In this document: positions 1-63,329 of the stretch, piece after piece
Numbering within the stretch: the first letter of the stretch is position 1
Layout of the letters: each line of letters opens with the position of its first letter
Source: Thermodesulfobacteriota bacterium
Lineage (GTDB): Bacteria; Desulfobacterota_D; UBA1144; Nemesobacterales; Mycalebacteriaceae
Length of the DNA stretch: 64,000 nt
Assembly: GCA_965226585.1 (NCBI GenBank)
Contig: OZ245366.1
Location: forward strand, 1,230,549 to 1,294,548
Direction of reading: 5' to 3'
Made by a program: the position numbers and the translations under genes
Notes under the pieces: model-generated
What the model saw: only the letters and a program-made list of their open reading frames with translations
Database searches by the model: none
What the model was told of the DNA's origin: nothing

Positions 1-740
1 GGCGCGATATACACAACCGCATGCCCGGAGTTGTCAACCGAGAGAGCGGCATCATCAGAACCCGCAAGGGTAACCTCGCCCAAACCGTCAAGGGCAAGAT
101 ATACAACACCCGTTTCAAAACGCGGGGCGAATGAAAACCTGTCATCGCCGAAAGCCCTCTGAACCGCTCCAACCGCCGCCCATGTTCGCACATCGTTAAG
201 ACCGCGATACCTGTTGCCCGTTTCGCTTCGGGTCATATCCCATTCCGTTTGCGTGAGAGAAATACGGAAATCCGCGTCCACTATGTTTGCCACCGGAAAG
301 GCGGCGGTGATTGCCGCGAGATAACGGCTTGCGTCTGCGTCCGCTTTTGTGGCGGTTCCGCGACCGGCAACGTCAAGGTCAAAATCCAGAATTTCGTAAC
401 CAATGCCGAAAGTAACCGCCGCCCAAGGCAGGGGAAACTGAACGCCGCCGTTAAAGGTGTAGGCGTCTTCGTTCCAGTTTAGGGTTTTTTCGTGTTTTGA
501 AATCCGCGCTCCGCCGCCCGCCCATACGCAGATGCCGGTTTTAAGTTCCGCGCTTTCCCCCATTCCGCAACCGTCAAGCAGGGAAACGCCGAATTGTCTG
601 TCTGAGTGGTAGCCCGATTGGACAAAGGCGTCATAGAGCAGAAGCCCTCCTTCATCGCCGCTTGCGGGGGCTGTGTGGATTAAGGTTGTAAAAATAAGCG
701 CGAGGAGCGCAACTCCGAAAGAGGTGTCAAAACGCAACAT
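1..740 (-). CDS. Stand-alone autotransporter-type beta-barrel protein with signal peptide, no passenger (3' end truncated by window edge)
   Basis: Not in the ORF track; translated by hand from ATG at 740: MLRFDTSFGVALLALIFTTLIHTAPASGDEGGLLLYDAFVQSGYHSDRQF...CGMGESAELKTGICVWAGGGAR...EDAYTFNGG...PRFETG. Open to base 1 and colinear with the barrel domains of the other paralogs. Confidence 0.85.
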   Translation of the reverse strand, partial: MLRFDTSFGVALLALIFTTLIHTAPASGDEGGLLLYDAFVQSGYHSDRQFGVSLLDGCGMGESAELKTGICVWAGGGARISKHEKTLNWNEDAYTFNGGVQFPLPWAAVTFGIGYEILDFDLDVAGRGTATKADADASRYLAAITAAFPVANIVDADFRISLTQTEWDMTRSETGNRYRGLNDVRTWAAVGAVQRAFGDDRFSFAPRFETGVVYLALDGLGEVTLAGSDDAALSVDNSGHAVVYIA

Positions 741-1782: not shown

Positions 1783-1874
1783 AATGAGAGTTTCTCCTGC
1801 GAGAGTGGTTGCCAATTTTCGCCTAAAAAGAGGCGAATATCAAGGGGAAATGTGGAAATACAACCTTCCCCCGC

Positions 1875-2072
1875 CATTCCGTTGCCTCCCTCCGTCATTC
1901 CGTTGCCTACCCTCCCTCATTCCGTTGCCTCCCTTCCGTCATTCCTGCGGAAGCAGGAATCCAGTATTGGTTAACCAGTTGAATACTGGATTCCGTGTCA
2001 AGCACGGAATGACGGAAGGGAGACAAGCGCGGAATGACGTGGGTGGCGTGTGTCAACAAGCACGGAATGACG
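1875..2072. repeat. CGTC-tagged palindromic (REP-dimer-like) element, core 1937..2014, with flanking partial units
   Basis: CGTCATTCCTGCGGAAGCAGGAAT-CCAGTATT..AATACTGG-ATTCCGTGTCAAGCACGGAATGACG; three CATTCCGTTGCC units on the left and two GGAATGACG units on the right. Confidence 0.9.
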
Positions 2073-2099
2073 GAATTGGGAAGTGAAGGACGGCGGTTA

Positions 2100-5000: not shown

Positions 5001-8000
5001 CCGCACATTTGAACTGGTTATATTCACGTGTGCTGTTCGTCCCCTTATTGCCGTTGACGAACCGGTTCCACCCTGTACCCAAACATTGGAACCGGTAACA
5101 TTCACAACTTGCCCCGACCCCGCTTCCGCGTTAATTGCCGCGCTGGTGTCGCCTCTTGCCCACACTGTTGAGCCGTTGAAAACTTCTATCGTTCGCCCTC
5201 TGATTCCGTCTGACCGTGCCGCGTTCCCCAACACATTTGCCCCGCTGATGATTACTCTTCCCGCTTCCGCAACAATGGCTCCGGTTTGAGATATGTTTGT
5301 CCACACATTCGCGCTGTTGTGCACTTCCACCGTTCCGGTGGATGTAAAGATTCCGTCCGCCGTGCCGCCGTCCGACCACACACTTGAGTCGTCAACAAAC
5401 ACACTTCCTCTGAACGATGTAATGGCGGCGTTTGCCCCGCCGTTTGCCCATACCATTGCCTTGTTGAATATCCGCGCCGTTTGCGCGTCCACGCCGTTTC
5501 CTGCCGATTCCGTCCAAACTTGCGCTCCGTTCACGGTTGCCGTTCCGGTGGCAAAAACCGCGCTGCTTGCCGCGCCGTTAATCCACACTTTCGCCCCGCT
5601 CACTATTTCCGCCGTTCCCGCCGCAACCGCGTCCATATCCGGGCCGCTTCCCTGCGCCCAAACCTCTGTGCCTGTGCCGTTGACCACCGCCAGAACAGTC
5701 GCGACAATCGCCGAGCCGCCATTTTCAACCGCCCAAACTTTTGCGCCGTTATAGACGCGAGTCGTGTCCGCCGTTATCGCGTTGGTTATCCCTAAGGTGT
5801 TAGTCCACACTTGCGCGCCGCCGTCCACTATTGCGGTTGCCGCCCGTATCGCGTCCGTTCCGTTGTGTGTCCACACTTGGGAAGAGGAGTTGATGAAAGC
5901 GGATTGCGCTATAACGGCTCTGCTTCCCGCGCCGTTTGACCATACTTTAGAACTGCTTTCGGTTACCGTTTTAGTTCCGTTGATTGCTTCTCCGGTCTCG
6001 CCTTCCGCCCAAACTTCGGAGCCGGTAACGGTTGCCTCGCCTGAGGTAATGGCGATGCTGTTCTCGCCTTCCGCCCAAACTTTTGAGCCGCTCCGAACCA
6101 CCGTTCCGGTAGAGTTGATTGAGTTGCTGTCTATGCTCTCCGTCCACACTTCGGAACTGTCAACGGTTACGACTGAATCGGCGGAAGTGGCGGAAATCGC
6201 GTTGCTTGTTGAGCCGTTTGCCCAAACCTTCGCGCCGTCTATAATTCTCACATCAGCCGTAATAGCGGATGAAAAATCTCTCGCCCTGATTGATGATGAA
6301 GTGCCGCCTTCCGACCACACTTCCGAGTTTCTGACGGTTACAACCCGTCCGGTGATCGCGCTACTGCTTACGCCGTTCGCCCATACCTTTGCGCCATTGG
6401 TAACGGTAACTCCGAGGGAGGCGGTGGCCGGGATGGTATCCTGAATTGATATGGAACTGCCGCCTTCCGTCCACACTTCCGCGCCGTTGACGATTATGTC
6501 ATTTCCGGCGACCGCTCTGCTTCGGCTTCCGTTTGACCATACTTTCGCGCCGTTTTCAATAGTTGCTCTCTCGAAAACTACGACTGCGTTGGTGTCTGCG
6601 CCTAATGTCCACACATTTGAGCCGTTGACGATTACACCACTGCCGCCGCCCCCGGTAATGGCGCTGGCTCTTATCATGTTTGCCCACACATTTGAGCCGT
6701 TGTAGATTCCCGTGGTTCCTCTGCCGATTGCAAGCGCGGCGTAGCCCACAGCGTCTGTCCATATATCGGAGTTGTCAACGGTTGCCGTTTGCGCCCTCAA
6801 AGCCGTGCGGCTACTGCGGTTAGACCACACCTTGGATTCGTTGAAAATATCCACATGGCTTGCTCTCGCGACTATTCCGTTCGCGTCTGTTCCTTCCGCC
6901 CACACCTGCGAGCCGTTGACGGTTACACTGCCCGCTCTGAATTCGGTTACAGTAATGGCTGAGCCGCCCGTGCCGTTAGCCCATACTTTCGCGTTGTTTT
7001 CAACATCCACACTCGCGCCGCTGATTAATCTGATTGCGTCACGGATTGCGCCTTCCCTCCACACTTCCGCGTTGTTGACTTTTACGGATGACGTGCTTCC
7101 GGTCGCGTAAAGAGCTTCGGATGAACTGCCGTTAGACCATACTTTCGCGCCGTTTTCTACGATTATCTCGCCGCCGTCTCTCGTATATACCGTCCAACCG
7201 CTGCCGCCGGTAGTCCATACCTCTGTGCCACTGCCGTTGACTCTTACATCAGAGCCGCCGCGTGTTTCAATTGCTGTGGCGGCGATAGTGTTAGCCCAAA
7301 CTTTTGACCCGTTGTACACGCTCACCGAACCCCCGCCGAGTGAAAGGGCTGCATAAGAGCCGGCCGCCGCCGACCAAACCTCTGTGCCCGTGCCGTCAAC
7401 GGTTACGGTGCTTGAGTTAATGGTTACCGCGCTCGCGCCGTTAGACCAAACTTTTGACCCGCCGTACACACCCACACCCACAGAGCCTGAACTGCCGATT
7501 GTCTGAGAGGGCGCGCCCGCACCGCCGCCTTGCGTCCATACGTTTGACCCGCCGTTGATTGTTACGGTTGTAGCGTTAATGGCTTGCGATGATGTGCCGT
7601 TAGCCCATACCTCGGAACCGTTGACGTTCACCTGCCTGCCGAGAATACCGTTGCTTCTGACTCCGTTTGCCCCAACCTTTGAGCCGTTCACAACATTCAC
7701 CGTGCTTCCGGTCGCGTCTATTGCTTTACCGAAACTGCCGTTAGACCACACTTGCGAGCCGTTGATATCTACCCTGCCTCCGCCGGAGATTGCGCTAATG
7801 GCTGAACTGCTCGTGCTGCCGTCAGACCACACTTTCGCGTTGTTTTCAACATCCACACTCGCCCCGCTGATTGATGTGATTGCTCTACTGCTTCCGCCGC
7901 TCTGCCACACTTCCGCGTTGTTGACTTTTACGGATGAACCGCTTCCGGACGCATAAATGGTGTCTACTGCGGAACTGCCGTTAGACCAAACTTTCGCTTC

Positions 8001-15519: not shown

Positions 15520-15788
15520 ATCATTCCGTTGCCTCACCCCGTCATTCCGTTGCCCTCCCCGTCATTCCGTTGCCTCACCCCGTCATTCCGTTGCCCTCCC
15601 CGTCATTCCGTTGCCCTCCCCGTCATTCCTGCGAAAGCAGGAATCCAGTATTACATAACCGGTTGAATACTGGATTCCGTGTCAAGCACGGAATGACGGA
15701 AGTGGAGAAGCGTCATTCCTGCGGAAGCAGGAATCCAGTATTAATTAACCGGTTGAATACTGGATTCCGTGTCAAGCACGGAATGACG
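15520..15788. repeat. Two CGTC palindromic element cores (15621..15698, 15711..15788) preceded by five 20-21 bp partial units
   Basis: Same 78-bp core as 1937..2014; lies between convergent stop codons. Confidence 0.92.
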
Positions 15789-19562: not shown

Positions 19563-19576
19563 AGGGGGAATTATGG

Positions 19577-19984
19577 TGTCATTCCTGCGGAAGCAGGAAT
19601 CCAGTATTAATTAACCAGTTGAATACTGGATTCCGTGTCAGGCACGGAATGACGGAAGTGGAGAAGCGTCATTCCGTTGCCTCCTCCGTCATTCCTGCGA
19701 AAGCAGGAATCCAGTATTAGTTAGCCAGTTGAATACTGGATTCCGTATCAGGCACGGAATGACGGAAGTGGAGAAGCGTCATTCCGTTGCCTCCTCCGTC
19801 ATTCCTGCGAAAGCAGGAATCCAGTATTAATTAACCAGTTGAATACTGGATTCCGTGTCAAGCACGGAATGACGGGAGTGGAGAAGCGTCATTCCGTTGC
19901 CTCCTCCGTCATTCCTGCGAAAGCAGGAATCCAGTATTAATTAACCAGTTGAATACTGGATTCCGTGTCAGGCACGGAATGACG
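19577..19984. repeat. Tandem array of four CGTC palindromic elements, 110-bp period
   Basis: Cores start at 19577, 19687, 19797 and 19907; nearly invariant 32-bp linker G(A/G)AGTGGAGAAGCGTCATTCCGTTGCCTCCTC. Confidence 0.95.
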
Positions 19985-20057: not shown

Positions 20058-23000
20058 ATGTCTAAAACCGCAACCACTCTTATTCTGCTTTCTCTCTTAC
20101 TCGCGCTTGCCGCGCCGCCCTCTTATGCACAAACAGCAACAACCGTTGTAGTCAACGGCTCTGAAGAGCGGACGGAAGACGACGGAAGCAACACAATAGT
20201 GGCGGAAACGGTCAACATTGTGAACGAAGGAAAAGTGTGGGCAAGCGGAGAGAATAGTTCGGCGATTGCTTCGGGAAATTCGGGAAACGTTACTATTATT
20301 TCAGGAGACGGAACGGGAGAGGTTTGGACAACCATTAGCGGCGTTTCAACAGTGAATGCGACAGGAACGGCGGAAATCAAAAACCTGAAAGTGTGGGCTA
20401 ACGGTCGCTCAAGCAATGCGGCTAAGGCGGCAACGGCAATAATCAACGGAGCACAAGTTTGGACGAACGGAAACTTTTCAAGAGCCGTGTTTGCGACCAC
20501 GGCGATTGTTCACGGCGCGGACGTTTGGGCTGACGACAGCATTGGAGGCATCGCTATTTACACACCGCTCGGAACAGCAACCGTAAGTAACAACTCGCAG
20601 GTTTGGGCTAACGGCGTTGGAGGCATGGCTATTTTCACACCGGGCGGAACAGTAACCGTAAGTAACAACTCACAGGTTTGGGCTGACGACATTGGAGGCA
20701 TCACCATTTACGCACTGGGCGGGACAGTAAATGTAAGCAACTCGCGGGTTTGGGCTGACGACACTGGAGGCATGGCTATTTTTACAACGGTCGGGACAGC
20801 AACCGTAAGTAACAACTCACAGGTTTGGGCTAACGGCGGTGAAGGCAGAGCCATTTACGCACCGGGTGGAACAGCAAATGTAAGCAACTCGCGGGTTTGG
20901 GCTAATGGATTTGGAAGCACCGCCATTATTGCGAATAACGTAGAGATTGAAGGTTCTGATGTTTGGACGGAAGAAGATTCCTCCGTTGTTACAATCAGCT
21001 CGGGAATTTCAAGCGTGAACAGTTCAAACCTTACTGCTTATAAGGACGGAAAGGTTTTTGCTCTGGACGCAAGCGAGGGCGACATTGAACTCAACCTTCA
21101 CAACTCAACAATCGGGTTTAATGGCGCAGGCGGAGAGTTTTTTAAGATTATTGACACAGAAGACAGCGGAACAGTAAACATTCAATCCCGCAACTCATCT
21201 TTCTGGATGGGAAAAGAGAACGCGGCTGTTTTCTCAACCATAGTAGAGGCGAACGGAACGGTAACAGACCGGATTGGTGAATTTGAACTGACAGACAGCA
21301 TTGAAATTTCCGATATGAACAGAGTATGGACAAAAGGCAAAAACGGCGCCGCCTTCTCTCTTGACTACCAAGGGATGAATGATGTGAAAATCAGCGAATA
21401 CTTCAACGCTCAACAGGCATGGACGGAAGGGGATAACAGCAACACAATCCGCATAAATACGGGAACCGGAGATGTCTCATTCGCCACCACCAGCAAGATA
21501 TGGGCAAACGGCGCGAACAGTTCGGTGATAAGTGCGGAAACCGGCGGCGGAGATGCGAACATTGAAATAGGAGCAGACCATAGTGTCTGGACAAGCGGCG
21601 TGAATTCTGTGGCAGTTAAGGCAAAAGCAACCGGAGCGGGAAACGCAAGCGTCTACACCCGTGCGGGCGCAAGGATTTTCACAAATGCGGCGGATAGTGT
21701 GGCGGTTTTTATTCGGGCAGGCGGTTCGGCTGGAAGCAGTGGAGTAGAGTTAAACATTGGAAATGGCTCGGTTGTGTGCGGTGGTGTGTTTTCAGATTCA
21801 AGTGACTGCACACAGGGAGCAAATTCTTACGCCGTGCAGTTTGAGTCTGAGGAAGGAGATACAAAAATAGTAATCGGCGCGGGCGGCTCTATAGCGGGAG
21901 TGGTGTTGCTTTCAGAAAAACGCGATTTTATCTACAACAACGGTTCTTTCACGGGTTCGGGAACAACCGGAGACGGTGATGATACGGTTGAAAACAAGGG
22001 AACTTTCACCCTCACCGGAGATTTTGACATGGGAGACGGTGAAGACATTTTCCAAAACAGGGGCACAATAAACGGCACGGGTATGGTCATATACGGTGAC
22101 GATGACGAAGTTGGTGGGCTTTCTACGCCCGCCCGTCATTCGTCCGCGCCCTCCCGTCATTCCGCATCCTCCCCTTCCCGTCATTCCGTGCCTGACACGG
22201 AATCCAGTATTCAACTGGCTAACCAATACTGGATTCCTGCTTCCGCAGGAATGACGGAGGGGGCAGGAATGACGGGGGAGGCAGGAATGACGGGGGAGGG
22301 GTCAGCAAGCGGCGACAGCCGTTTCCGCCTTTCCGCCGCCGCGCCGGAACGGGAGCCGGAACGGGTAACCATCAACTTTGGCGATGGCGATGACCATTTC
22401 ATAAACGAAGGCACAGTAGTTCTTGGAGGCACGGGCGGCTTTAACGGCTTGGACAAAATAACCTTCGGCGTGAACTCAACCCTTGTTGTCTCGGCAGACC
22501 CTGAAGAAATGAATGACAAACCGCTCATAGATATTGAAGGCGAGATAACTGCGGAAGATATTGAGGGTTTTAGAGTCAGGGTTGATGTTCCCGGAACGCA
22601 CGTAACGGAATACACAATTTTTGAAGCGGATGACTTGCCGGACGGCGAGGAAAGGCAGGAAGTTGTGGAGCGTCTGAATGCGGAAATAGGCGAAAGGGGA
22701 AGTGTTCAGACAGATGGAGACGGCAATCTGTTTTTGACAGCAATATCGTTAAAAGACGCCAGTTTGGATATTTATGACTCTCTCATCCAATCCGCTTACC
22801 GCGCAGACAGGAGTTTTGCCACAAAACTTTCAAGCGGTTGCGGTTACGGATCTGCGGCGAGTGATGAGATAGACGGAGATTTCTGGACTGGTTGTGTGTG
22901 GGCAACATCGGGCGGAAGATACACACGTTATTCTTCAGCAATTAACTATGATGAAGATGCCTATACCTTCACCGGAGGCGTTTCAGCTCCGTTCAACAGT

Positions 23001-23723
23001 ATCCTTGTCTCGGTGGCAGGCGGTTATGAAATCTCAACCCTTGATATGGATGTGCTGACTGATGAAGGCAGGGCAGACGCAAGCGGAGAAGCGACAAGAT
23101 TTATGGGCGGTATCTTTGCCTCCACAATAGTGGACAGATACATGGTTGACGGCAGGTTTCAGTATGTTTCTACGAGTTGGGAGTCAACCCGCTCTGATGG
23201 AGATAACCGTTACTCTGCGGATACAAACGCGACAGTATTCGGCGGCGCGCTTAGCGCGGCAATGCCGTTTTTGTCCGGCAGTTTCGCGTTATTTCCCCGC
23301 ATAGAGATTGGAGCGTCTTATGTAACAGCGGGCGCGTTTGATGAGACTTCCTTAACAGACTCAGAAGAGGCAAGGGCTGATGCTTTCAAGGTAAAAGACA
23401 CAAGTGAGATATTGGTATATGTAAGTCCGTCATTTGAGGCGCGTTCACCTTTGAGTGAAACGGTAAATATGAGAATTCGCGTGGGGGCGGATATACACAT
23501 CTTGAACCCTGAAGCCGACCTTGAGGCAACTCTTGATGGCGGTAGCGTTCCCCGAAGCGGCGGGCAGGACCGGATAATGTTCAACTACGGCGCAGGTTTT
23601 GAATACACACCGTATGCTCCTCTGCGGGAATTGAGTGTAAGGATTGACTACGATGGCGGAATGAGCGCGAGTTTTGATACTTTCGTGCAAGAGTTCAGAG
23701 GCGGCGTTAATTACAGTTTTTAA
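20058..23723 (+). CDS. Autotransporter adhesin-like protein (1221 aa) with in-frame palindromic element
   Basis: Signal peptide ending PSYA-Q, VSNNSQVWA repeats, GDGDD repeats, barrel ending VNYSF. Confidence 0.9.
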   Translation: MSKTATTLILLSLLLALAAPPSYAQTATTVVVNGSEERTEDDGSNTIVAETVNIVNEGKVWASGENSSAIASGNSGNVTIISGDGTGEVWTTISGVSTVNATGTAEIKNLKVWANGRSSNAAKAATAIINGAQVWTNGNFSRAVFATTAIVHGADVWADDSIGGIAIYTPLGTATVSNNSQVWANGVGGMAIFTPGGTVTVSNNSQVWADDIGGITIYALGGTVNVSNSRVWADDTGGMAIFTTVGTATVSNNSQVWANGGEGRAIYAPGGTANVSNSRVWANGFGSTAIIANNVEIEGSDVWTEEDSSVVTISSGISSVNSSNLTAYKDGKVFALDASEGDIELNLHNSTIGFNGAGGEFFKIIDTEDSGTVNIQSRNSSFWMGKENAAVFSTIVEANGTVTDRIGEFELTDSIEISDMNRVWTKGKNGAAFSLDYQGMNDVKISEYFNAQQAWTEGDNSNTIRINTGTGDVSFATTSKIWANGANSSVISAETGGGDANIEIGADHSVWTSGVNSVAVKAKATGAGNASVYTRAGARIFTNAADSVAVFIRAGGSAGSSGVELNIGNGSVVCGGVFSDSSDCTQGANSYAVQFESEEGDTKIVIGAGGSIAGVVLLSEKRDFIYNNGSFTGSGTTGDGDDTVENKGTFTLTGDFDMGDGEDIFQNRGTINGTGMVIYGDDDEVGGLSTPARHSSAPSRHSASSPSRHSVPDTESSIQLANQYWIPASAGMTEGAGMTGEAGMTGEGSASGDSRFRLSAAAPEREPERVTINFGDGDDHFINEGTVVLGGTGGFNGLDKITFGVNSTLVVSADPEEMNDKPLIDIEGEITAEDIEGFRVRVDVPGTHVTEYTIFEADDLPDGEERQEVVERLNAEIGERGSVQTDGDGNLFLTAISLKDASLDIYDSLIQSAYRADRSFATKLSSGCGYGSAASDEIDGDFWTGCVWATSGGRYTRYSSAINYDEDAYTFTGGVSAPFNSILVSVAGGYEISTLDMDVLTDEGRADASGEATRFMGGIFASTIVDRYMVDGRFQYVSTSWESTRSDGDNRYSADTNATVFGGALSAAMPFLSGSFALFPRIEIGASYVTAGAFDETSLTDSEEARADAFKVKDTSEILVYVSPSFEARSPLSETVNMRIRVGADIHILNPEADLEATLDGGSVPRSGGQDRIMFNYGAGFEYTPYAPLRELSVRIDYDGGMSASFDTFVQEFRGGVNYSF
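20523..20910 (+). repeat. About five near-identical 66-69 bp coding repeats
   Basis: GT(A/V)(T/N)VSN(N)S(Q/R)VWA(N/D)xxxGxAI(F/Y) units with strong DNA identity. Confidence 0.85.
22134..22292. repeat. In-frame CGTC palindromic element (core 22179..22256)
   Basis: Reverse-orientation copy of the intergenic core; encodes RHSVPDTESSIQLANQYWIPASAGMT. Confidence 0.92.
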
Positions 23724-23752
23724 TACCCCTTCTGATTTGCGGAGGCAATGTT

Positions 23753-26700
23753 TTGTCTAAAAAATTATCCTGTATTATTCTGTCTACTCTCTTATTTGCA
23801 TTTTCCGCGCCGTCATCCTCTTACGCGCAACCAGCAGTCTTCGAAATCTGTGGCGACAAAAGCATCATACCCAACGCAGTCAATTTAAGATGTATCTCCA
23901 CAACCGGAAACGCAGTTATTATCCTGTACCTTCCTGGTGCCGAATTTACTGAAGACAGTGGCAACTTTAGTCTGCTCAACGCCACCGAAGCGGGTGCGGA
24001 TGCAATCTTTAACACTCACGCTATAAAGATCACAACAACCCAAACAGGCGGAGATACTATAATTATCGGCGGCGCGGGAAACGCTGCTTTCAGAGCCGAT
24101 GACGAAGCATTTACCATCAAATCTGGCGGCGGGAATGTTGTTACTATGACAGCCGGAACGGGTGATGCGAATATAGAAATTTACAATCAATCAAAAGTTC
24201 AAATTGAATCAACCGGCGGCGGGAACGGAATTGTCGCTTCAAGCGAAAGCGGAGATGTGTTTGCGGACTTCTCCAATCAAGGGAGAATCTATTCAGTTCA
24301 AGATGACGCGACCGGGTTTATCGCGACAACCAACGGCGGTGAAATCAGCGCGAATTTTGACGGTTTGTATTCAAGAATACTTATGTACCCCGTAGGCAAT
24401 CACGGTGGCTCATCAGACGCCAAAGGCGCGACACTCACATCCACAAGCGGCGATATAAGTGTTTTGCTTACAAACTCCTCGGCAATCCTCGCCCCGTCTC
24501 TGGGAGATTCCCACGGCTTGGAGGCGGTAACGGGAGGGGACGGCGACATAAACATACATTTGCAAAATGGAAACGCCTGCATAGTCGGCAGAAACGGGGT
24601 TAAAGCCACTACTGTTGACGGAGATATAAACATATACCTGTCGAACGCGCTGATTCGCGGCATAGGCACAGGCGGACGGGCTTTGAATGCAACATCTACA
24701 AACGGAGATATCACAATCACAGGCGATGGCACGGGCAATATCAACTCTGTTAGTAACGTCGTCTATCTTGACACCAGCGGCGAGGCAAACATCAGCGGTG
24801 TCAGAATCGGGACAGAAGCCGGTACGGCTGTCGAGTCAACGGGAAACCTGACTGTTTCAAACGCAGAGATTTGGGCGAACGGCAATTCTAGCGATGCGGT
24901 GAAAGCACAGACGGTACATGTATCGGGCGGAATGATCTGGACTAACGGCTTTTCTAGCGAGGCGGTGAATGCACAGACGGTGTATGTATCGGGCGGAATG
25001 ATTTGGACTAACGATTTGTTTAGCGATGCGGTGGAAGCACAGACGGTGCATGTATCGGGTGGAATGATTTGGGCGAACGGCAGCGGTGCATTGTCCTCAG
25101 AGACGGTGAATGTGTCGGACGGAATGATCTGGACAACCGGCGATGTTGATGATGCGGTGTCCTCAGATACGGTGAATGTGTCGGGCGGAATGATTTGGAC
25201 AATCGGCGATTCTAGTGATGCCGTGGACGCAGATACGGTAGTGAATGTGTCGGGCGGAATGATTTGGGCTAACGGCAGATCTAGCGAGGCGGTGAAAGCA
25301 CAGACGGTGTATGTGTCGGGTGGAATGATTTGGGCTGACGGCTCCCATGGCGCAGCGGTGAGTGCACAGACGTTAGTAAATGTGTCGGACGGAATGATTT
25401 GGGCTGACGGCTCCCGTGGCACAGCGGTGAATGCACAGACGGTAAATGTGTCGGGTGGAATAATTTGGTCTAACGGCTCGAATAGCCATGCGGTGAGTGC
25501 ACAGACGGTAAATGTGCCGGGCGGAATAATTTGGTCTAACGGCTCCGGCATATTATCCAGTGCTGTGTTTCTCAGAAACATAGAAGGTCCAGCGGAGTTG
25601 AAGGTTGGAGGAGGCGCGGTTGTGTGCGGCGGTATACTTTCGGGTTCTGTCTGCACGGCGGGTGGCTCTGACGTGCATGCCGTGCGTGCTGATGACTTTG
25701 CAACCACTGGCGGAACGATAACAACCGAAGACGGCGGCAATATAACGGGCAGAATTTTGCTTTCAAAACACAACGATGTTTTCTACAACAACGGCTCATT
25801 CACCGGACACGGAAACACCAGAGGCGGCGATGACAGGGTTGAAAACAAGGGAACCTTCACCCTGACTGGAGACTTTGAAATGGGTGAAGGCGATGACACT
25901 TTTGAAAACAAAGACAGTGGAATGGTAGTTTATGGCAACCACTCAATAATCGCAGAAACCAAGCCTGACCCACCCTCCACGCAACAATCCTCTCCTTCCC
26001 GTCATTCCGCATCTTCACCTTCCCGTCATTCCGTGCTTGACACGGAATCCAGTATTCAACTGGCTAACCAATACTGGATTCCTGCTTCCGCAGGAATGAC
26101 GGAGGGGGCAGGAATGACGGAGGGGGCAGGAATGACGGAGGGGGCGGGAATGACGGAGGGGGCAGGAAACAGCCGTTTCCGCCTATCTTCTGCAGACCCC
26201 GCCCCTGCGGACACAACCGCAACCATTAACTTCGGAGATGGCGATGACCATTTCATAAACAATGGCACAATCGTAATTCAAAACACAGGCGGATTTGCGG
26301 GGCTGGAGAAAATAACCTTCGGCGAAAACTCAACCGTAATGGTTACCGCAGACTCTACAGAAATGACAACAGACAAACCCCTCATAGAACTTGAAGGCGA
26401 GATAACTGCGGAAGATGTTAAAGACTTAAACATAAAATTAGCCAACCCTGAAAGACATTCAGACGAATTTTCTTTATTCAGTGAAACCGCCTTGCCAGAC
26501 AGCGAAGCCGAAAGGCAAGAGGTATTGAGCATGATAAGCGGCGGGCTTGGTGAAGGCAGTAGCGCGGGGATGGATTCAAACGGCAACATATTTGTTGTGC
26601 TTGCAAATTCCGTCCACTTTAACTACTTGAGAAACTATGACGCGATGATTCAATCCGCTTACCAATCGGATAGTGCCTTTTCAGAAAAACTGCGAGGCAG

Positions 26701-27529
26701 TTGCTACGGCGGAGAGGCGGAAACACAAGATTTAAGCGGCGGCTGTCTCTGGGCAGACGCAGGAAGCCGTCACACACGGCACGACACAAAGGTTAAATAC
26801 GGAGAAGATGCCTATGTATTTGCCGGAGGTTTGTCCATCCCCGCAGGGCAGTCCGCCGTGTCAATCGGCGCGGGTTATGAAACATCAGACTTTAACGCCG
26901 GAACGGACACAAACGCGGCGGGTGAGCGTTTTATGGCAGGATTATCAGTAGCAGGTGAGATTTGGAAAAGAATTATCGCAGATGCAAGAACACAGTTTGC
27001 AAAAGCGGCATGGGAATCAACATCCGCAAGGGGAGAAGATACCTACTCCGCAAAGACAAATATAACAACGTGGTCTGCCGCAATAGGGGCGGAAATGCCA
27101 TTCTTTCCCGGTGGTGTATTTATGGTGGTTCCGCGTCTTGAAGCGGGAGTAGCCCGTGTATCTGCGGATGGTTTTACAGAAACCGGAGACATGCCTCTTT
27201 CTGTTGAAGGATTATCACAAACATATTTGCGTGTAACTCCATCAGTAACGGCTTATGCTCCCGCAGGGGAAAGTGTAAATATGTGGATGACCGCCGGAGC
27301 GGATGCTCACTTAACAGACCCCAAAACAGACTTAAAAGCCGCCTTTTCCCCTGATGACCCGGTAAATACAAAAGGCGGACTTGAACGCATAAACATAAGA
27401 TACAGCGCGGGTGCAGAGGTAAGTCCGTTAAAAGGTGTAAGTGTTCGTGTGGCGTATAGCGGCGGTGTTTCCACTACCTTTGATACGCTTACGCAGACAT
27501 TTACGGCAAGGTTCGGAGTGGCGTTTTAG
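23753..27529 (+). CDS. Autotransporter adhesin-like protein (1258 aa) with in-frame palindromic element
   Basis: GGAGG 7 nt before TTG start, signal peptide ending SSYA-Q, TVxVSGGMIW repeats, barrel ending FGVAF. Confidence 0.9.
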   Translation: MSKKLSCIILSTLLFAFSAPSSSYAQPAVFEICGDKSIIPNAVNLRCISTTGNAVIILYLPGAEFTEDSGNFSLLNATEAGADAIFNTHAIKITTTQTGGDTIIIGGAGNAAFRADDEAFTIKSGGGNVVTMTAGTGDANIEIYNQSKVQIESTGGGNGIVASSESGDVFADFSNQGRIYSVQDDATGFIATTNGGEISANFDGLYSRILMYPVGNHGGSSDAKGATLTSTSGDISVLLTNSSAILAPSLGDSHGLEAVTGGDGDINIHLQNGNACIVGRNGVKATTVDGDINIYLSNALIRGIGTGGRALNATSTNGDITITGDGTGNINSVSNVVYLDTSGEANISGVRIGTEAGTAVESTGNLTVSNAEIWANGNSSDAVKAQTVHVSGGMIWTNGFSSEAVNAQTVYVSGGMIWTNDLFSDAVEAQTVHVSGGMIWANGSGALSSETVNVSDGMIWTTGDVDDAVSSDTVNVSGGMIWTIGDSSDAVDADTVVNVSGGMIWANGRSSEAVKAQTVYVSGGMIWADGSHGAAVSAQTLVNVSDGMIWADGSRGTAVNAQTVNVSGGIIWSNGSNSHAVSAQTVNVPGGIIWSNGSGILSSAVFLRNIEGPAELKVGGGAVVCGGILSGSVCTAGGSDVHAVRADDFATTGGTITTEDGGNITGRILLSKHNDVFYNNGSFTGHGNTRGGDDRVENKGTFTLTGDFEMGEGDDTFENKDSGMVVYGNHSIIAETKPDPPSTQQSSPSRHSASSPSRHSVLDTESSIQLANQYWIPASAGMTEGAGMTEGAGMTEGAGMTEGAGNSRFRLSSADPAPADTTATINFGDGDDHFINNGTIVIQNTGGFAGLEKITFGENSTVMVTADSTEMTTDKPLIELEGEITAEDVKDLNIKLANPERHSDEFSLFSETALPDSEAERQEVLSMISGGLGEGSSAGMDSNGNIFVVLANSVHFNYLRNYDAMIQSAYQSDSAFSEKLRGSCYGGEAETQDLSGGCLWADAGSRHTRHDTKVKYGEDAYVFAGGLSIPAGQSAVSIGAGYETSDFNAGTDTNAAGERFMAGLSVAGEIWKRIIADARTQFAKAAWESTSARGEDTYSAKTNITTWSAAIGAEMPFFPGGVFMVVPRLEAGVARVSADGFTETGDMPLSVEGLSQTYLRVTPSVTAYAPAGESVNMWMTAGADAHLTDPKTDLKAAFSPDDPVNTKGGLERINIRYSAGAEVSPLKGVSVRVAYSGGVSTTFDTLTQTFTARFGVAF
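24868..25550 (+). repeat. About 10-11 tandem 60-69 bp coding repeats (AQTVxVSGGMIWxxGxxSxAV)
   Basis: Repeated GGAAT(G/A)AT(C/T)TGG and CAGACGGT DNA anchors. Confidence 0.9.
26000..26168. repeat. In-frame CGTC palindromic element (core 26024..26101) plus 18-bp satellite
   Basis: Encodes RHSVLDTESSIQLANQYWIPASAGMTEG followed by three more AGMTEG units. Confidence 0.92.
26170..27529 (+). repeat. ~1.36-kb near-identical direct repeat, partner at 29281..30646
   Basis: C-terminal ~450 aa of two adjacent autotransporters differ by about a dozen residues and one 6-nt indel. Confidence 0.95.
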
Positions 27530-27549
27530 AGACGCGGACGCGCCCACTC

Positions 27550-27593
27550 CGTCATTCCGTGCCTGACACGGAATCCAGTATTCAACTGGCTAA
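27550..27593. repeat. Half copy of the CGTC palindromic element
   Basis: CGTCATTCCGTGCCTGACACGGAATCCAGTATTCAACTGGCTAA; second arm missing. Confidence 0.85.
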
Positions 27594-27712
27594 TTTCATA
27601 TATATTAAAAAAACAAACAAATGTCATTGCCACAAAAAATATTTTTTTTCTCTCGTTTTTCCTCACCGCTGTAACGCTTACGGCAATTGCACCTGTTCCC
27701 GCTTATTCGCAA

Positions 27713-30646
27713 TTGCAATTCAATTATTGCGACAACCCTCCCCCTCCCTCTGCGACTTGCACCCCAGACAACATATACATCCGATTTTATCACGAACACA
27801 TAAGAACCGTACTGCTTGAACCTCCGGACAAAACCTCCGTTGATGAAACAACCGTCCGTGACGGAACCATCACCATACTCTTTAACAAACAAGGCAGAAT
27901 TGCATCAAGAGTACCGGATGGCGCGAACGGGATTTTGGCAACAACTGAAAACGGCGATATGACCGCAACTTTTGACGGACTGGGTTCGGGAATCTTTATG
28001 TATCCAAGTGGCAAACGCGACACCTACTCAAATGCCAGAGGCGCGACATTCACAAGCGATAGCGGCAATATAAGTGTTTTACTAACAAACTCTGGGTCAA
28101 TCCTCGCGCCGTCTCTGGGAGATTCCCACGGCTTTGTGGCTCAAACGGGAGAGGACGGAGATATAGACATAGTGATGAAAAACGGGAACTCATGCATAGT
28201 AGGCAGAAACGGTGTTAAAGCAACTACTGTTGACGGAGATATACGCATAGAACTGTCGGGCGCGCTGATTCGCGGTATAGGCACAGGCGGATGGGCTTTG
28301 AATGCAACATCGGTAAATGGAGATATCACAATCACAGGCGATGGCACGGGCAACATTGCCTCTCTGAATCATAATAGCAGCGGCGTTTATCTTGACACCG
28401 ATGGTGAGGCAAGCATCAGCAATATTGATATATGGACGCAAGGAGATGGCGGCACAACAATAGAATCGGTGAGCGGCTTGCGTGTAGTATCGGGAAACAT
28501 CTGGGCTAACGGCTCGGGCGGCAATACGGTGGAAGCGGGAACTGTGAATGTGTCGGGCGGAGATATTTTTACGACAGTCCATAACAGCAATGCGGTGGTT
28601 GCGCAGGCGGTGAATATATCGGGTGGAGGGATTTGGACACTCAGAGGCGGGTCATCAGAGAGCATTTTCAGTACCGCCGTGCTTCTCAGAAACGAAGACG
28701 GGCAAGCGGAATTAACGGTTGGAGGAAGCGCGATTGTGTGCGGCGGTGCGCTTTCGGGCATAATCTGCACGGCAAGCGACTATGGCTATGCCGTGCGTGC
28801 TGAGACCCCGGCGGCGACCTATGGCACAAAGATAACAACCGAAGGTAGCGGCAATATAACGGGCAGAATTGGGCTTTCAGACAACAGCGATGTTTTCTAC
28901 AACAACGGCTCTTTCACCGGACACGGAAACACCGGAGCCGGTGATGACAGGGTTGAAAACAAGGGAACCTTCACCCTCACCGGAGATTTTGAAATGGGTG
29001 AAGGCGATGACAGCTTTGTGAACATAGACGGCGGAATGGTAGTAGGCGATGACACTCACACAATAACGCCTACACCGACTACGGGAACACAATCCTCTCC
29101 ACCCCGTCATTCCGCATCCTCTCCTTCCCGTCATTCCGTGCTTGACACGGAATCCAGTATTCAACTGGGTTACCCAATACTGGATTCCTGCTTTCGCAGG
29201 AATGACGGAGGGGGCAGGAATGGCGAGAGTGGGGAATGTCATTCCGCGCCTGCGTCTTCCACCCCGTCAGCAAGCGGCGACAGCCGTTTCCGCCTCTCTT
29301 CTGCAGACCCCGCCCCTGCGGACACAACCGCAACCATTAACTTCGGCGATGGCGATGACCATTTCATAAACAACGGCACAATCGTAATTCAAGATACAGG
29401 CGGCTTTGCGGGCTTGGAGAAAATAACCTTCGGTGAAAACTCAACCGTTATGGTTACCGCAGATTCTACAGAAATGACAACAGACAAACCCCTCATAGAA
29501 CTTGAAGGCGAGATAACCGCAGAGGATGTTAAAGACTTAAACATAAAATTAGCCAACCCCGAAAGACATTCAGACGAATTCGCCCTGTTCAGTGAAACCG
29601 CCTTGCCTGATAATGAAGCCGAAAGGCAAGAGGTATTGAGCATGATAAGCGGCGGTCTTGGTGAAGGCAGTAGCGCGGGGGTGGATTCAAACGGCAATAT
29701 ATTTGTTGTGCTTGCCAATTCCGTTCACTTTAACTACCTGAGAAATTATGACGCAATGATCCAATCCGCTTACCACTCGGATAGTGCCTTCTCAGAAAAA
29801 CTGCGCGGCAGTTGTTACGGCGGGGAAGCGGAGACACAACATTTAAGCGGCGGCTGTCTCTGGGCAGACGCAGGAAGCCGTCATACGAGACACGACACAA
29901 AGGTTAAATACGGAGAAGACGCTTATGTATTTGCCGGTGGTTTGTCCATCCCCGCCGGGCAGTCTGCCGTATCAATCGGCGCAGGTTATGAAACATCAGA
30001 CTTTAACGCCGGAACTGATACAAACGCGGCAGGTGAAAGGTTTATGGCAGGATTATCAGTAGCAGGTGAGATTTGGAAAAGAGTTATCGCGGATGCAAGA
30101 ACACAGTTTGCAAAAGCGGCATGGGAATCAACATCCGCAAGGGGAGAAGATGCCTACTCCGCAAAGACAAATATAACAACATGGTCTGCCGCAATAGGGG
30201 CGGAGATGCCGTTTTTCCCCGGTGGTGTATTTATGGTGGTTCCGCGTCTTGAAGCGGGAGTAGCCCGTGTATCTGCGGACAGTTTCATGGAAACCGGCGG
30301 CGGAGATATGCCTCTTTCTGTAGGCGGATTATCACAAACATATTTGCGTGTAACTCCATCGGTAACGGCTTATGCTCCCGCAGGGGAAAGTGTAAATATG
30401 TGGATGACCGCCGGAGCGGACGCTCATTTAACAGACCCCAAGACAGACTTAAAAGCCACCTTCTCTCCTGATGACCCTGTGAATACAAAAGGCGGTTTTG
30501 AACGCATAAACATAAGATACAGCGCGGGTGCTGAGGTAAGTCCGTTAAAAGGTGTAAGTGTTCGTGTTGCGTATAGCGGCGGGGTTTCCACTACCTTTGA
30601 TACGCTTACGCAGACATTTACGGCAAGGTTCGGAGTGGCGTTTTAG
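27713..30646 (+). CDS. Autotransporter adhesin-like protein; natural start probably ATG 27621, out of frame (frameshifted leader)
   Basis: 977-aa ORF paralogous to 23753..27529. The in-frame upstream codons read IFFLSFFLTAVTLTAIAPVPAYSQ (signal-like) but have no in-frame ATG/GTG/TTG. Confidence 0.85.
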   Translation: MQFNYCDNPPPPSATCTPDNIYIRFYHEHIRTVLLEPPDKTSVDETTVRDGTITILFNKQGRIASRVPDGANGILATTENGDMTATFDGLGSGIFMYPSGKRDTYSNARGATFTSDSGNISVLLTNSGSILAPSLGDSHGFVAQTGEDGDIDIVMKNGNSCIVGRNGVKATTVDGDIRIELSGALIRGIGTGGWALNATSVNGDITITGDGTGNIASLNHNSSGVYLDTDGEASISNIDIWTQGDGGTTIESVSGLRVVSGNIWANGSGGNTVEAGTVNVSGGDIFTTVHNSNAVVAQAVNISGGGIWTLRGGSSESIFSTAVLLRNEDGQAELTVGGSAIVCGGALSGIICTASDYGYAVRAETPAATYGTKITTEGSGNITGRIGLSDNSDVFYNNGSFTGHGNTGAGDDRVENKGTFTLTGDFEMGEGDDSFVNIDGGMVVGDDTHTITPTPTTGTQSSPPRHSASSPSRHSVLDTESSIQLGYPILDSCFRRNDGGGRNGESGECHSAPASSTPSASGDSRFRLSSADPAPADTTATINFGDGDDHFINNGTIVIQDTGGFAGLEKITFGENSTVMVTADSTEMTTDKPLIELEGEITAEDVKDLNIKLANPERHSDEFALFSETALPDNEAERQEVLSMISGGLGEGSSAGVDSNGNIFVVLANSVHFNYLRNYDAMIQSAYHSDSAFSEKLRGSCYGGEAETQHLSGGCLWADAGSRHTRHDTKVKYGEDAYVFAGGLSIPAGQSAVSIGAGYETSDFNAGTDTNAAGERFMAGLSVAGEIWKRVIADARTQFAKAAWESTSARGEDAYSAKTNITTWSAAIGAEMPFFPGGVFMVVPRLEAGVARVSADSFMETGGGDMPLSVGGLSQTYLRVTPSVTAYAPAGESVNMWMTAGADAHLTDPKTDLKATFSPDDPVNTKGGFERINIRYSAGAEVSPLKGVSVRVAYSGGVSTTFDTLTQTFTARFGVAF
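29105..29246. repeat. In-frame CGTC palindromic element (79-bp core 29129..29207)
   Basis: Same element with one extra base in the central loop. Confidence 0.9.
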
Positions 30647-31089: not shown

Positions 31090-31094
31090 CAAAA

Positions 31095-61904: not shown

Positions 61905-61966
61905 ATCGCGGGGTTTAAGTTAACAGCAATTTGCCCGCAGTGCTTGCGGGGTGTAACTTAACCGCC

Positions 61967-62056: not shown

Positions 62057-62131
62057 AAAGACTGTGGCATACTTGCAGGAAAGAATAACGCTTTTTTTGA
62101 TAATAAAGAGGTTTTGGAGAAGCGGAAATCC

Positions 62132-63328: not shown

Positions 63329-63329
63329 G

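What the first reader, a model, noticed from the sequence alone, without database searches (positions are those of the whole stretch)
22134..29246. Palindromic element retained in frame at the same loop of three autotransporters
Seen: in genes 20058, 23753 and 27713 the element sits between the MG(D/E)G(E/D)D and NFGDGDD repeats. The giant paralog has only ~11 aa at that position, equivalent to an empty site. The core is exactly 26 codons, and its partial flanking units are spaced 18, 21 or 24 bp in genes but 20-22 bp between genes, indicating frame-preserving selection. The core stays nearly identical to intergenic copies although genes 20058 and 23753 are otherwise highly diverged. Known: Rickettsia RPEs insert in frame in proteins. 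Inference: recurrent targeting or gene conversion at a passenger/translocator hinge, serving as a recombination joint, an mRNA structure or a flexible cleavable linker.
Basis: partly seen in the sequence, partly recalled or inferred. Interest (0 to 1): 0.8.

Follow-up and report, generated by a model that had tools for sequence, protein, structure and literature searches.

The report
Nuclease-linked hairpin repeat translated inside autotransporters
A small palindromic repeat, the gene-less miniature of a mobile element that carries a tiny GIY-YIG nuclease gene, is read through in frame at one linker position in 13 related surface-protein genes of a small bacterial genome, and it lies at the centre of the DNA exchange among those genes.

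Summary
A 79-nt nested palindrome with short flanking units lies in frame at one linker position in all three window genes. Genome-wide it does so in 13 of 27 full-length paralogs of a lineage-specific type Va autotransporter family (29 genes, 10% of a 1.48 Mb genome).

About 125 further copies are intergenic, mostly in arrays beside these genes. The frame is kept: 25 of 25 genic unit spacings are 18, 21 or 24 nt, and a 1-nt insertion in two copies is compensated downstream.

The filled genes are polyphyletic on the barrel tree. Exchange between barrel clades peaks at the element and fades within about 0.8 kb, which points to spread by gene conversion. A reverse-oriented remnant in another paralog shows a second insertion.

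The element's identity is new here. Its ends are inverted NTS-like hairpins. Two full-length copies in the same genome carry a 96-aa GIY-YIG gene exactly in the central loop. This is the NTS-ssnA-NTS layout of the Ssn nuclease family described in Neisseria in 2025.

No function for the protein or the mRNA is shown, and no RNA data were available. I class it as a new variant of known kinds.

The parts
20058..23723 (+). Autotransporter paralog 1 (1221 aa), barrel clade A
   Evidence: ORF. The AF2 model of its last 450 aa has pLDDT 79; Foldseek top hits are EstA, NalP (TM 0.83 to target), AIDA-I, EspP, BrkA and Hbp. Pfam on its barrel piece alone gave no hit.
22131..22301 (+). Element-derived in-frame stretch in paralog 1: three left units, 79-nt core (22179-22257), three right 18-nt units
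   Evidence: As RNA, 161 nt fold at -91.9 kcal/mol, z -7.3. As DNA, the core folds at z -8.1.
23753..27529 (+). Autotransporter paralog 2 (1258 aa), barrel clade C
   Evidence: Its barrel piece hits PF03797 at 55.7 bits against a cut-off of 26.
25988..26168 (+). Element-derived in-frame stretch in paralog 2: two left units, core (26024-26102), four right 18-nt units (GMTEGA x4)
27713..30646 (+). Autotransporter paralog 3 (977 aa as listed). The signal-peptide ATG at 27621 is out of frame across a T8 run.
   Evidence: Its barrel piece hits PF03797 at 49.9 bits.
29093..29252 (+). Element-derived stretch in paralog 3: core with a 1-nt insertion (29129-29208), read in another frame, followed by an inverted unit that restores the frame
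   Evidence: The same variant is the first of two copies in the paralog at genome 686839-690234. Its RNA fold has z -6.6.
19576..19984 (-). Intergenic array of four cores (period 110 nt), 74 nt upstream of paralog 1, in the opposite orientation to the genic copy
27549..27595 (+). Left half of an element 20 nt after the stop of paralog 2, ending abruptly at an AT-rich stretch
15539..15788 (-). Five tandem 20-21-nt units followed by two cores, between an RNase R-like gene and an oxidoreductase gene
1892..2073 (-). One core with flanking units, between a barrel-only paralog and the giant paralog
2100..10691 (-). Giant paralog (2863 aa) without the linker: the 'empty, linker-less' state
   Evidence: Its barrel piece hits PF03797 at 43.8 bits. 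A 79%-identical protein from another assembly also lacks the linker.
727..1815 (-). Barrel-only paralog (362 aa), with no passenger
   Evidence: PF03797 matches at 43.7 bits in the whole-genome scan.

Best explanation
What the element is. It is the gene-less miniature of an NTS-ssn-NTS type mobile element. Its two ends are inverted hairpins of the form CGTCATTCC-stem-loop-GGAATCCAG. They are joined by a short AT-rich palindrome (CCAGTATT...AATACTGG). In the same genome, two full-length copies carry a 96-aa single-domain GIY-YIG nuclease gene exactly in that central loop.

Where it sits. The miniature has about 139 copies, mostly in intergenic arrays around a lineage-specific family of 29 type Va autotransporter genes. 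A forward-oriented copy became part of the Pro/Ser-rich linker between the variable passenger and the conserved unit of junction domain, pore helix and 12-strand barrel.

How it is kept and spread. It is translated as extra linker residues. Selection keeps only the reading frame open, not a particular peptide. It reached 13 paralogs in four barrel clades by gene conversion or recombination that carried flanking sequence with it. The same linker was hit at least once more, by a reverse-oriented copy.

Inferred, not shown. The 80-200 nt of near-identity is the only good homology between diverged clades, so exchange between clades starts or ends there. The resident nuclease may nick the hairpins in single-stranded DNA and so seed repair by conversion.
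For: Shown:
- 139 loci of at least 60 nt; 14 lie inside 13 ORFs of 782-1909 aa, all in the gene's orientation and about 1.43-1.55 kb from the 3' end.
- No genic hairpins in any other real gene.
- The family is 29 genes and 149 kb, 10.1% of the genome.
- Autotransporter fold and Pfam hits.
- Frame keeping: 25 of 25 genic unit spacings are multiples of three against 43 of 145 intergenic. A 1-nt insertion is compensated in 2 copies. The genic frame is open in only 53 of 125 intergenic copies.
- Barrel tree: the filled state needs 5 changes, 4 of them forced by starred branches, and is monophyletic in 0 of 200 bootstrap trees.
- The element is 97-98% identical between paralogs whose barrels are about 50% identical.
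- The share of 90-nt windows whose best match (at least 90% identity) comes from another barrel clade is 12 of 26 at the element, 7-9 of 26 within about 300 nt, and 0 beyond +780.
- Just downstream of the element this share is 14 of 52 and 17 of 52 in filled genes, against 4 of 32 and 6 of 32 in empty ones.
- All four combinations of the two polymorphic sites inside the core occur among the genic copies.
- Related proteins from other assemblies show an empty site (P0006), a half element (P0008) and a reverse remnant (P0010), on passengers and barrels combined differently from here.
- The reverse remnant in paralog o27460 is a 21-nt exact match, z 10.6.
- The GIY-YIG gene sits in the central loop in 2 of 2 copies, both inside arrays between family genes, and hits Pfam PF01541 at 58.6 bits.
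- A congener's 68%-identical gene is flanked by exact matches to the published NTS consensus; a genome of another family in the order shows the same layout.
- 137 genome sites match the NTS consensus with up to 3 substitutions, against 0 in shuffles.
- The published description of NTS-ssnA-NTS and of NTS clusters near membrane-protein genes is in PMC11893778.
Against: - The published degenerate SRM search pattern does not pick up these hairpins: 7 hits against 4-10 in shuffles.
- Homology to Neisseria SsnA itself was not tested, because no SsnA sequence was in hand.
- A close GIY-YIG homolog was found in only 3 of 6 hairpin-rich genomes, so many genomes keep hairpins without the gene.
- Breakpoints are scattered from about -700 to +700 and are not confined to the element. 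Empty paralogs also show exchange between clades in the junction domain, 4-7 of 32 windows per bin. The element is therefore not needed for exchange, and the roughly twofold excess beside it rests on non-independent paralogs.
- No target-site duplication was seen.
- There is no evidence of transcription, translation or nuclease activity.
Confidence: 0.7

Rival explanations
1. Recurrent independent insertion: the element, or its nuclease, targets this linker sequence, and each clade acquired its copy separately.
For: The filled genes are polyphyletic. A reverse-oriented remnant in o27460 and P0010 shows at least two hits on the same linker. The site is empty, half-filled or filled in related assemblies.
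Against: All 14 full genic copies have one orientation and one entry frame, although reverse frame 1 is open in 115 of 125 copies. Flanking sequence is shared across clades together with the element. No target-site duplication or common target motif was seen beyond a Ser/Pro-rich context. No other gene carries a copy.
Confidence: 0.12
2. One ancient insertion inherited vertically through the family's duplications, lost several times, with the element sequence held constant by selection.
For: The position, orientation and frame are the same in all 13 genes. Deletion derivatives exist: a half element in o1354085 and a solo unit in o830181.
Against: The element is 97-100% identical where barrels are 43% identical in amino acids. 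At least 4-5 changes are needed on the barrel tree. Genic copies are as similar to intergenic copies as to each other, and the four-gamete pattern occurs inside the core. The mosaic flanks point the same way.
Confidence: 0.08
3. The insert is kept because it does something for the gene product or the message. It could be a flexible or cleavable linker peptide, or a strong mRNA structure that slows the ribosome or sets mRNA stability.
For: It is retained open in 13 genes. The predicted RNA structure is very stable, -91.9 kcal/mol with z -7.3, and this is kept in the frameshifted variant, z -6.6. It sits in a Pro/Ser-rich linker that deeper paralogs lack.
Against: Two of 14 copies encode a different peptide after a frameshift. 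Fourteen paralogs, some with near-identical barrels (o1318889 is 94% identical to paralog 1), lack the full core. The structure is a property of every intergenic copy too. No expression or peptide data exist.
Confidence: 0.1

Closest known systems
NTS/SRM hairpin repeats with the Ssn (SsnA) GIY-YIG single-stranded DNA nuclease (Chenal et al., Nat Commun 2025, PMC11893778; read: outline, passages, Discussion, Methods section 17)
   Same: The oriented hairpin has CGTCATTCC on one side and GGAATCCAG on the other. A single-domain GIY-YIG gene of about 100 aa is flanked on both sides by inverted hairpins. There are hundreds of copies clustering beside membrane or surface protein genes, in a host-associated bacterium. 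A congener carries exact NTS-consensus hairpins.
   Different: Here two hairpins are fused into a 79-nt gene-less doublet with a central palindrome. The stems differ: 3 substitutions from the NTS consensus, and the published SRM pattern is not matched. Copies are translated in frame in 13 genes, whereas the paper reports NTS as rarely inside genes (2% in one meningococcal genome). The phylum differs: related proteins are labelled Thermodesulfobacteriota. Nuclease activity was not tested.
Neisserial intergenic mosaic elements, NIME: dRS3 hairpins flanking RS elements (Bentley et al. 2007, PMC1797815; passages read)
   Same: Arrays of 20-21-bp ATTCC...GGAAT inverted repeats alternate with AT-richer spacers, with periods of 86-163 nt. 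They lie next to variable surface-protein genes that are mosaics.
   Different: That paper states NIME arrays had not been observed outside Neisseria; here they are in an unrelated lineage. The spacer is one conserved palindrome rather than more than 100 RS families. One unit lies inside coding sequence.
Rickettsia palindromic elements, RPE (as summarised in the MITE review PMC10969869; passages read)
   Same: A palindromic repeat is inserted in frame in protein-coding genes and read through as extra residues.
   Different: RPEs sit in many unrelated genes. This element sits at one homologous site in one paralog family and spread by conversion. No sequence comparison with RPEs was made. An associated nuclease gene is present here.
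MITEs, including Correia elements
   Same: It is short, has terminal inverted repeats, occurs in many copies, and is a deletion derivative of a longer gene-carrying element in the same genome.
   Different: No target-site duplication was seen. The partner gene is a small GIY-YIG nuclease, not a known transposase. Tandem arrays are the main form.
REP/BIME repeats with RAYT transposases
   Same: Hairpin repeats occur in arrays, and a single RAYT-like gene exists in the genome (76.3 bits, just under the NCBIfam cut-off of 80).
   Different: The RAYT-like gene is not flanked by these repeats. It has orthologs in 4 of 5 congeners that lack the composite element.

Membership tests
Type Va (classical) autotransporter | C-terminal 12-strand beta-barrel (Pfam PF03797) | tested here: met
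   Barrel pieces of paralogs 2 and 3 and of the giant paralog score 55.7, 49.9 and 43.8 bits against a cut-off of 26. The whole-genome scan gives 16 matches over the cut-off. Paralog 1 has no Pfam hit, but its AF2 model matches EstA, NalP, AIDA-I, EspP, BrkA and Hbp. Scans of the full-length proteins gave nothing.
Type Va (classical) autotransporter | Alpha-helix through the pore just before the barrel, and a terminal aromatic residue | tested here: met
   The model has a helix at residues 130-154 of the last 450 aa, followed by strands 175-449. All three proteins end in F. This rests on a prediction only.
Type Va (classical) autotransporter | N-terminal signal peptide and a secreted beta-helical passenger | not tested
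   Paralogs 1 and 2 start with a hydrophobic stretch ending ...YAQ, read by eye. In paralog 3 this stretch is out of frame. The passenger fold was not modelled.
NTS/SRM-Ssn elements | Oriented hairpin matching the NTS consensus CGTCATTCCCGCGMAVGCGGGAATCYRG | tested here: inconclusive
   There are 0 exact matches and 1 with at most 1 mismatch. With at most 3 substitutions there are 137, against 0 in shuffles even at up to 5 substitutions. The conserved flanks are kept while the stems differ. The congener G001 has 11 exact matches in 14 kb.
NTS/SRM-Ssn elements | Match to the published degenerate SRM search pattern | tested here: not met
   7 matches in the genome against 4-10 in five shuffles.
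NTS/SRM-Ssn elements | Single-domain GIY-YIG gene of about 100 aa flanked by hairpins on both sides | tested here: met
   Two identical 96-aa genes at genome 1209374-1209661 and 1333306-1333593 each lie between inverted hairpins. PF01541 scores 58.6 bits. The same layout occurs in G001 and G011.
NTS/SRM-Ssn elements | Homology of the gene to Neisseria SsnA, and cleavage specific to single-stranded DNA next to the hairpin | not testable with these tools
   No SsnA sequence came from any tool. There was no PDB or NCBIfam match. At least 7,989 homolog clusters at E<=1e-10 fit a very widespread family. Activity needs a bench assay.
MITE | Terminal inverted repeats, and derivation from a longer element in the same genome | tested here: met
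   The short and long forms share both ends and differ only in the central loop.
MITE | Target-site duplication | tested here: not met
   None was seen at the filled/empty comparisons of linker DNA. These comparisons were between paralogs, not alleles.
REP with RAYT | RAYT gene flanked by its own repeats | tested here: not met
   No inverted repeats and no GTCATTCC units lie around the RAYT-like gene.
Rickettsia palindromic elements | Sequence membership in an RPE family | not tested
   No RPE sequence was compared. Only the behaviour (in-frame, palindromic) is alike.

The most novel reading that the evidence does not exclude
The NTS-like doublets inside the coding sequence are working sites of the resident Ssn-like nuclease. 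Nicks at the hairpins in single-stranded DNA would start repair from paralogous copies. On this reading the cell has a built-in device that swaps passenger modules against translocation units and keeps remodelling its surface-protein repertoire. A selfish nuclease element would have been turned into a diversity generator placed within genes rather than beside them.
Probability: 0.25. Interest if true: 0.85.

Novelty: new variant of a known kind. Interest (0 to 1): 0.62.

Why it matters
The 2025 paper on Ssn nucleases says their role outside Neisseria remains to be elucidated. It also notes that the repeat-gene-repeat layout looks like a mobile element.

This genome offers a compact natural case:
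- The full-length form and the miniature form lie side by side.
- Hairpin arrays bracket a surface-protein family that makes up a tenth of the genome.
- The miniature sits inside 13 of those genes, at the centre of the zone where diverged paralogs exchange sequence.

That turns 'do these hairpins and their nuclease drive recombination at neighbouring genes?' into a testable question with defined substrates.

It also extends in-frame 'selfish DNA' beyond the Rickettsia case, to one site spread through a paralog family. And it shows NIME-like arrays outside Neisseria.

Tried and rejected
- Expression: no RNA holder was listed for paralog 1.
- Laid contigs of four runs were short pieces that do not bridge the element. 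The one joint at the element (22211 to 22301 with ACCCC between) equals the half form of paralog o1354085, so it is no allele of paralog 1.
- A second structure prediction, of the junction region (alignment A2), was meant to see whether the insert is a disordered excursion.
- RAYT as mobiliser: rejected.
- IS110/Piv-type recombinase: PF01548 gave no match, and PF02371 was below its cut-off.
- Rfam: nothing at the gathering threshold; only sub-threshold miRNA-like hairpin matches.
- Phage and plasmid collections: one 35-nt chance-level match, and none.
- The composite core pattern was not found in 40 relatives, in 185,579 species genomes, or in JGI metagenome contigs. The own genome may be left out of those scans.
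- Relatives of the autotransporter C-domain: none in 20 related genomes or in the two collections. The profile search gave only 21 hits at E<=1e-30, mostly own paralogs.
- Idea that every 'empty' linker is a decayed element: rejected. 11 of 14 non-filled linkers show no similarity above shuffles.
- Full-length hmmscan gave no family for the four big proteins; barrel pieces had to be scanned alone.
One search used a wrong anchor and was redone.
Full report
WHAT IS AT THE COORDINATES. The window (52% GC) holds three tandem ORFs on the + strand: 20058-23723, 23753-27529 and 27713-30646. Each contains the same sequence between a ...MG(D/E)G(E/D)D... repeat and ...INFGDGDD.... That sequence is a 79-nt core, CGTCATTCCGTGCCTGACACGGAATCCAGTATTCAACTGGCTAACCAATACTGGATTCCTGCTTCCGCAGGAATGACGG. 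It has one to three short units bearing GTCATTCC on the left and one to four 18-nt units bearing GGAATGAC on the right. A 47-nt piece of the core matches 7 times in the window with at most 3 mismatches, against none in 100 shuffles. The 10-mer CCGTCATTCC matches 32 times against 0.17 expected. Intergenic copies lie at 1892-2073, 15539-15788 and 19576-19984 (four cores, period 110), and a half copy lies at 27549-27595. The core folds as a three-hairpin junction: z -8.1 as DNA, and -91.9 kcal/mol with z -7.3 for 161 nt as RNA.

GENOME-WIDE PICTURE. The genome is one contig of 1,484,247 bp with 51.6% GC. A short-word BLAST finds 139 loci of at least 60 nt, grouped in 60 places. Fourteen copies lie inside 13 ORFs of 782-1909 aa. 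All are in the orientation of the gene and 1.43-1.55 kb from its 3' end. These ORFs belong to a family of 29 paralogs, 27 full-length and two barrel-only, totalling 149 kb or 10.1% of the genome.

Of the 47 intergenic places, about half abut a family gene. In tandem gene contexts, 15 of 16 arrays at the 3' end of a family gene point the same way as the gene, against 6 of 18 at other genes. Hairpins inside other 'genes' fall only in short spurious ORFs that run through arrays. So the genic state is confined to this family and to one homologous site.

ARE THEY AUTOTRANSPORTERS, AND WHERE IS THE SITE? Full-length scans gave no Pfam or NCBIfam family. Barrel pieces alone hit PF03797: paralog 2 at 55.7 bits, paralog 3 at 49.9 and the giant paralog at 43.8, against a cut-off of 26. 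Paralog 1 gave none. A whole-genome scan agrees. An AF2 model of the last 450 residues of paralog 1 (18-row alignment, pLDDT 79) has a beta-rich part at residues 1-124, a helix at 130-154 and then twelve strands. Its best Foldseek matches are EstA, NalP (TM 0.83 to the target), AaaA, AIDA-I, EspP, BrkA and Hbp.

The element therefore sits before a conserved junction domain, about 155 residues upstream of the pore helix. It is not at the barrel hinge itself. The deepest paralogs (the giant one at 2100-10691, plus o1222151 and o1328720) have no linker there at all. Others have a Pro/Ser-rich linker ending in ...GG.GRFRLS.... Thirteen have that linker plus the element.

THE FRAME IS KEPT, THE PEPTIDE IS NOT. 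Inside family genes, 25 of 25 unit spacings are 18, 21 or 24 nt. Between genes, 43 of 145 are multiples of three, over a range of 17-29 nt. The frame used in genes is open in only 53 of 125 intergenic copies, many of which carry TAA in the central loop. Genic copies carry GCTAA(C/T)CAA there. Twelve genic copies read RHSV(P/L)DTESSIQLANQYWIPASAGMT. Two copies, in paralog 3 and the first copy in o686839, have a 1-nt insertion. They read GYPILDSCFRRND... and return to frame after an inverted unit about 70 nt on. This fits selection for an open frame in a tolerant linker. It argues against a role for a specific peptide.

HISTORY. On a tree of the last 330 residues (27 genes), the filled state needs 5 changes, 4 of them forced by starred branches. 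It is monophyletic in 0 of 200 bootstrap trees. Filled genes sit in four well-supported clades, each alongside empty members.

Paralogs 1 and 2 are 97-98% identical over the element, about 70-77% over the next 300 nt, and about 50% over the barrel. Other pairs are plain mosaics. For example, o445149 and o1189475 are 100% identical for more than 600 nt up to the element and 65-75% beyond +480. Paralog 3 and o771678 share only the stretch from -345 to +255.

Taking 90-nt windows of the 13 filled genes, I counted those whose best match (at least 90% identity) comes from another barrel clade. The count is 12 of 26 at the element and 7-9 of 26 within about 300 nt. It falls to 2-4 of 26 out to about 700 nt on either side, and to 0 beyond +780. 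Just downstream of the element it is 14 of 52 and 17 of 52 in filled genes, against 4 of 32 and 6 of 32 in empty ones. Further into the junction domain the two groups are alike. Within clades, mosaicism is dense everywhere. The two polymorphic sites inside the core occur in all four combinations among genic copies, and they do not follow barrel clades.

Three non-filled paralogs keep element remnants at the site. One is a left half (o1354085, z 34.6). One is a single unit (o830181, z 4.0). One is a 21-nt terminal hairpin in the reverse orientation, read in the reverse frame as GFRVRHGE (o27460, z 10.6). The other 11 show nothing above shuffles. In total, 16 of 27 full-length paralogs carry element-derived sequence at this site.

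Proteins from other assemblies, two of them named as MAG proteins of a Thermodesulfobacteriota bacterium, add to this:
- P0006 has an empty site.
- P0008 has the half form, on a passenger 82% identical to o771678 but with a clade-C-like barrel.
- P0010 has the reverse remnant with a barrel 98% identical to that of paralog 1.

Together this supports one founding forward insertion spread by conversion together with its flanks, plus at least one separate reverse insertion. It does not fit a single neutral ancestral insertion.

WHAT THE ELEMENT IS. The terminal hairpin pattern TCATTCC-N10/11-GGAAT occurs 281 times here, and 1-34 times in five congeners. It occurs 23 and 35 times in two genomes of other families of the order. 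The backwards control pattern gives 0 throughout.

In congener G001 the hairpins flank a small ORF. A tblastn search with that ORF found two identical homologs here, 68% identical to it, at genome 1209374-1209661 and 1333306-1333593. Each lies exactly in the central loop of an element: GTCATTCC-hairpin-GGAATCCAGTATT | gene | ...AATACTGGATTCC-hairpin-GGAATGAC. Each lies inside an array between two family genes, and the nearer one is about 21 kb upstream of the window. The 96-aa product is a single GIY-YIG domain, PF01541 at 58.6 bits. It has at least 7,989 homolog clusters at E<=1e-10, many of them 70-80% identical and named only 'GIY-YIG nuclease family protein'. G011, from another family of the order, shows the same layout, including the CCAGTATT/AATACTGG motif. 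So the 79-nt element is the long element minus its gene.

A full-text search for GIY-YIG with dRS3 gave one paper: Chenal et al. 2025 (PMC11893778; I read the outline, passages, the Discussion and Methods section 17). It describes SsnA, a small GIY-YIG nuclease that cuts single-stranded DNA next to the 28-nt NTS hairpin CGTCATTCCCGCGMAVGCGGGAATCYRG. It describes the NTS-ssnA-NTS layout as 'identical to mobile genetic elements'. It reports NTS clusters next to membrane-protein genes, NTS rarely inside genes (2% in one genome), and enrichment in symbionts.

G001's hairpins match that consensus exactly, 11 times in 14 kb. Here, 137 sites match with up to 3 substitutions, against 0 in shuffles. 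The paper's degenerate SRM pattern is not matched, with 7 hits against 4-10 in shuffles. The arrays also resemble the neisserial NIME arrays, which Bentley et al. 2007 said had not been seen outside Neisseria (PMC1797815, passages).

DISTRIBUTION.
- The composite core was not found in 40 related genomes, including 5 of the genus. It was not found in 185,579 species genomes or in JGI metagenome contigs.
- The C-domain of the family was not found in 20 relatives or in either collection. A profile search of 1.84 billion representatives gave 21 proteins at E<=1e-30, mostly this genome's own.
- A close GIY-YIG homolog (E<=1e-30) occurs in 3 of the 6 hairpin-rich genomes sampled and in 0 of 7 hairpin-poor ones.
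- Contigs of a sponge-metagenome run from another study lie on the passenger of paralog 1, with 0-5 other letters per 155-378-nt piece.

MECHANISM, WITH ITS STATUS.
- Shown: the anatomy, the long and short forms, the frame keeping, the polyphyly, and the exchange zone centred on the element.
- Inferred: the near-identical 80-200 nt acts as the homology that lets diverged clades exchange sequence, and the resident nuclease nicks the hairpins in single-stranded DNA and so seeds conversion.
- Against a strong version: breakpoints are scattered, empty paralogs also exchange, and paralogs are not independent observations.
- A peptide or mRNA role is not excluded, but nothing specific supports it.

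WHAT COULD NOT BE DONE. No RNA run holds the stretch. The contigs were too short to bridge the element. Supplementary tables of the Ssn paper, which list genomes and SRM counts, were not available and might already include this lineage.

NOVELTY. In-frame palindromic repeats (RPEs) and the Ssn/NTS system are both in print. My searches found no report that joins autotransporters with in-frame palindromic elements, or with repeat-linked gene conversion. The term sets gave one unrelated paper and no relevant one. I found none for such a case in sponge-associated Thermodesulfobacteriota either. Three things appear new:
- the gene-less NTS doublet;
- its fixation in frame at one site across 13 paralogs of an autotransporter family;
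- its position at the centre of exchange between clades.

I rate it a new variant of known kinds.

Noticed in passing
window 27621-27712: Paralog 3 has an ATG at 27621 followed by a good signal-peptide reading (MSLPQKIFF...), but this is out of frame with the ORF across a run of eight T. A run of six or nine T would join them. This could be slipped-strand phase variation, a pseudogene or a homopolymer error.
   Followed up: partly
genome C1:1209374-1209661 and 1333306-1333593 (about 21 kb upstream of the window, and beyond its end): Two identical 96-aa GIY-YIG genes, each nested in the central loop of an element inside an array between autotransporter genes. They are the likely full-length form of the repeat.
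   Followed up: yes
L030 (G001:C1:1383000-1397000), 5650-7700: A congener has arrays with a 110-nt period. Each unit holds an exact Neisseria-type NTS hairpin plus the first 24 codons of the GIY-YIG gene, so the arrays grow by copying an end of the element.
   Followed up: partly
genome C1:1393314-1394135 (L029 1420-2241): A single RAYT-like tyrosine transposase gene scores 76.3 bits, just under the cut-off of 80. It is not flanked by the repeats and is conserved in 4 of 5 congeners.
   Followed up: yes
window 727-1815 and 3-806 (-): Two barrel-only paralogs (362 and about 369 aa), each with its own hydrophobic N-terminus and no passenger, lie next to the giant paralog.
   Followed up: no
window 10869-11218 and 30643-31092: A standard one-piece tmRNA (149.7 bits) lies about 9 kb upstream of the autotransporter trio, and SmpB lies directly after it.
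   Followed up: no
window 61931-64000: GC drops to 39.7% in the last 2 kb. A tRNA (61967-62053) overlaps the start of an ORF that has an N6/N4 DNA methylase domain. This may be an island edge.
   Followed up: no
genome C1:686542-686808: An orphan fragment matches the last 92 residues of a barrel (60% identity) and lies just upstream of the paralog that carries two element copies. It is probably a recombination leftover.
   Followed up: no
window 20058-30646 (method): hmmscan of the full-length repetitive proteins returned no family, while the barrel pieces alone scored 44-56 bits for PF03797. Long repetitive passengers can hide the domain in this tool.
   Followed up: yes
runs X5 and X6 laid on window 22149-22394: Two other runs hold only the right-hand hairpin part (X5), or the element at high depth plus a 90-95% alike C-domain (X6). 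This suggests relatives with related repeats elsewhere.
   Followed up: no
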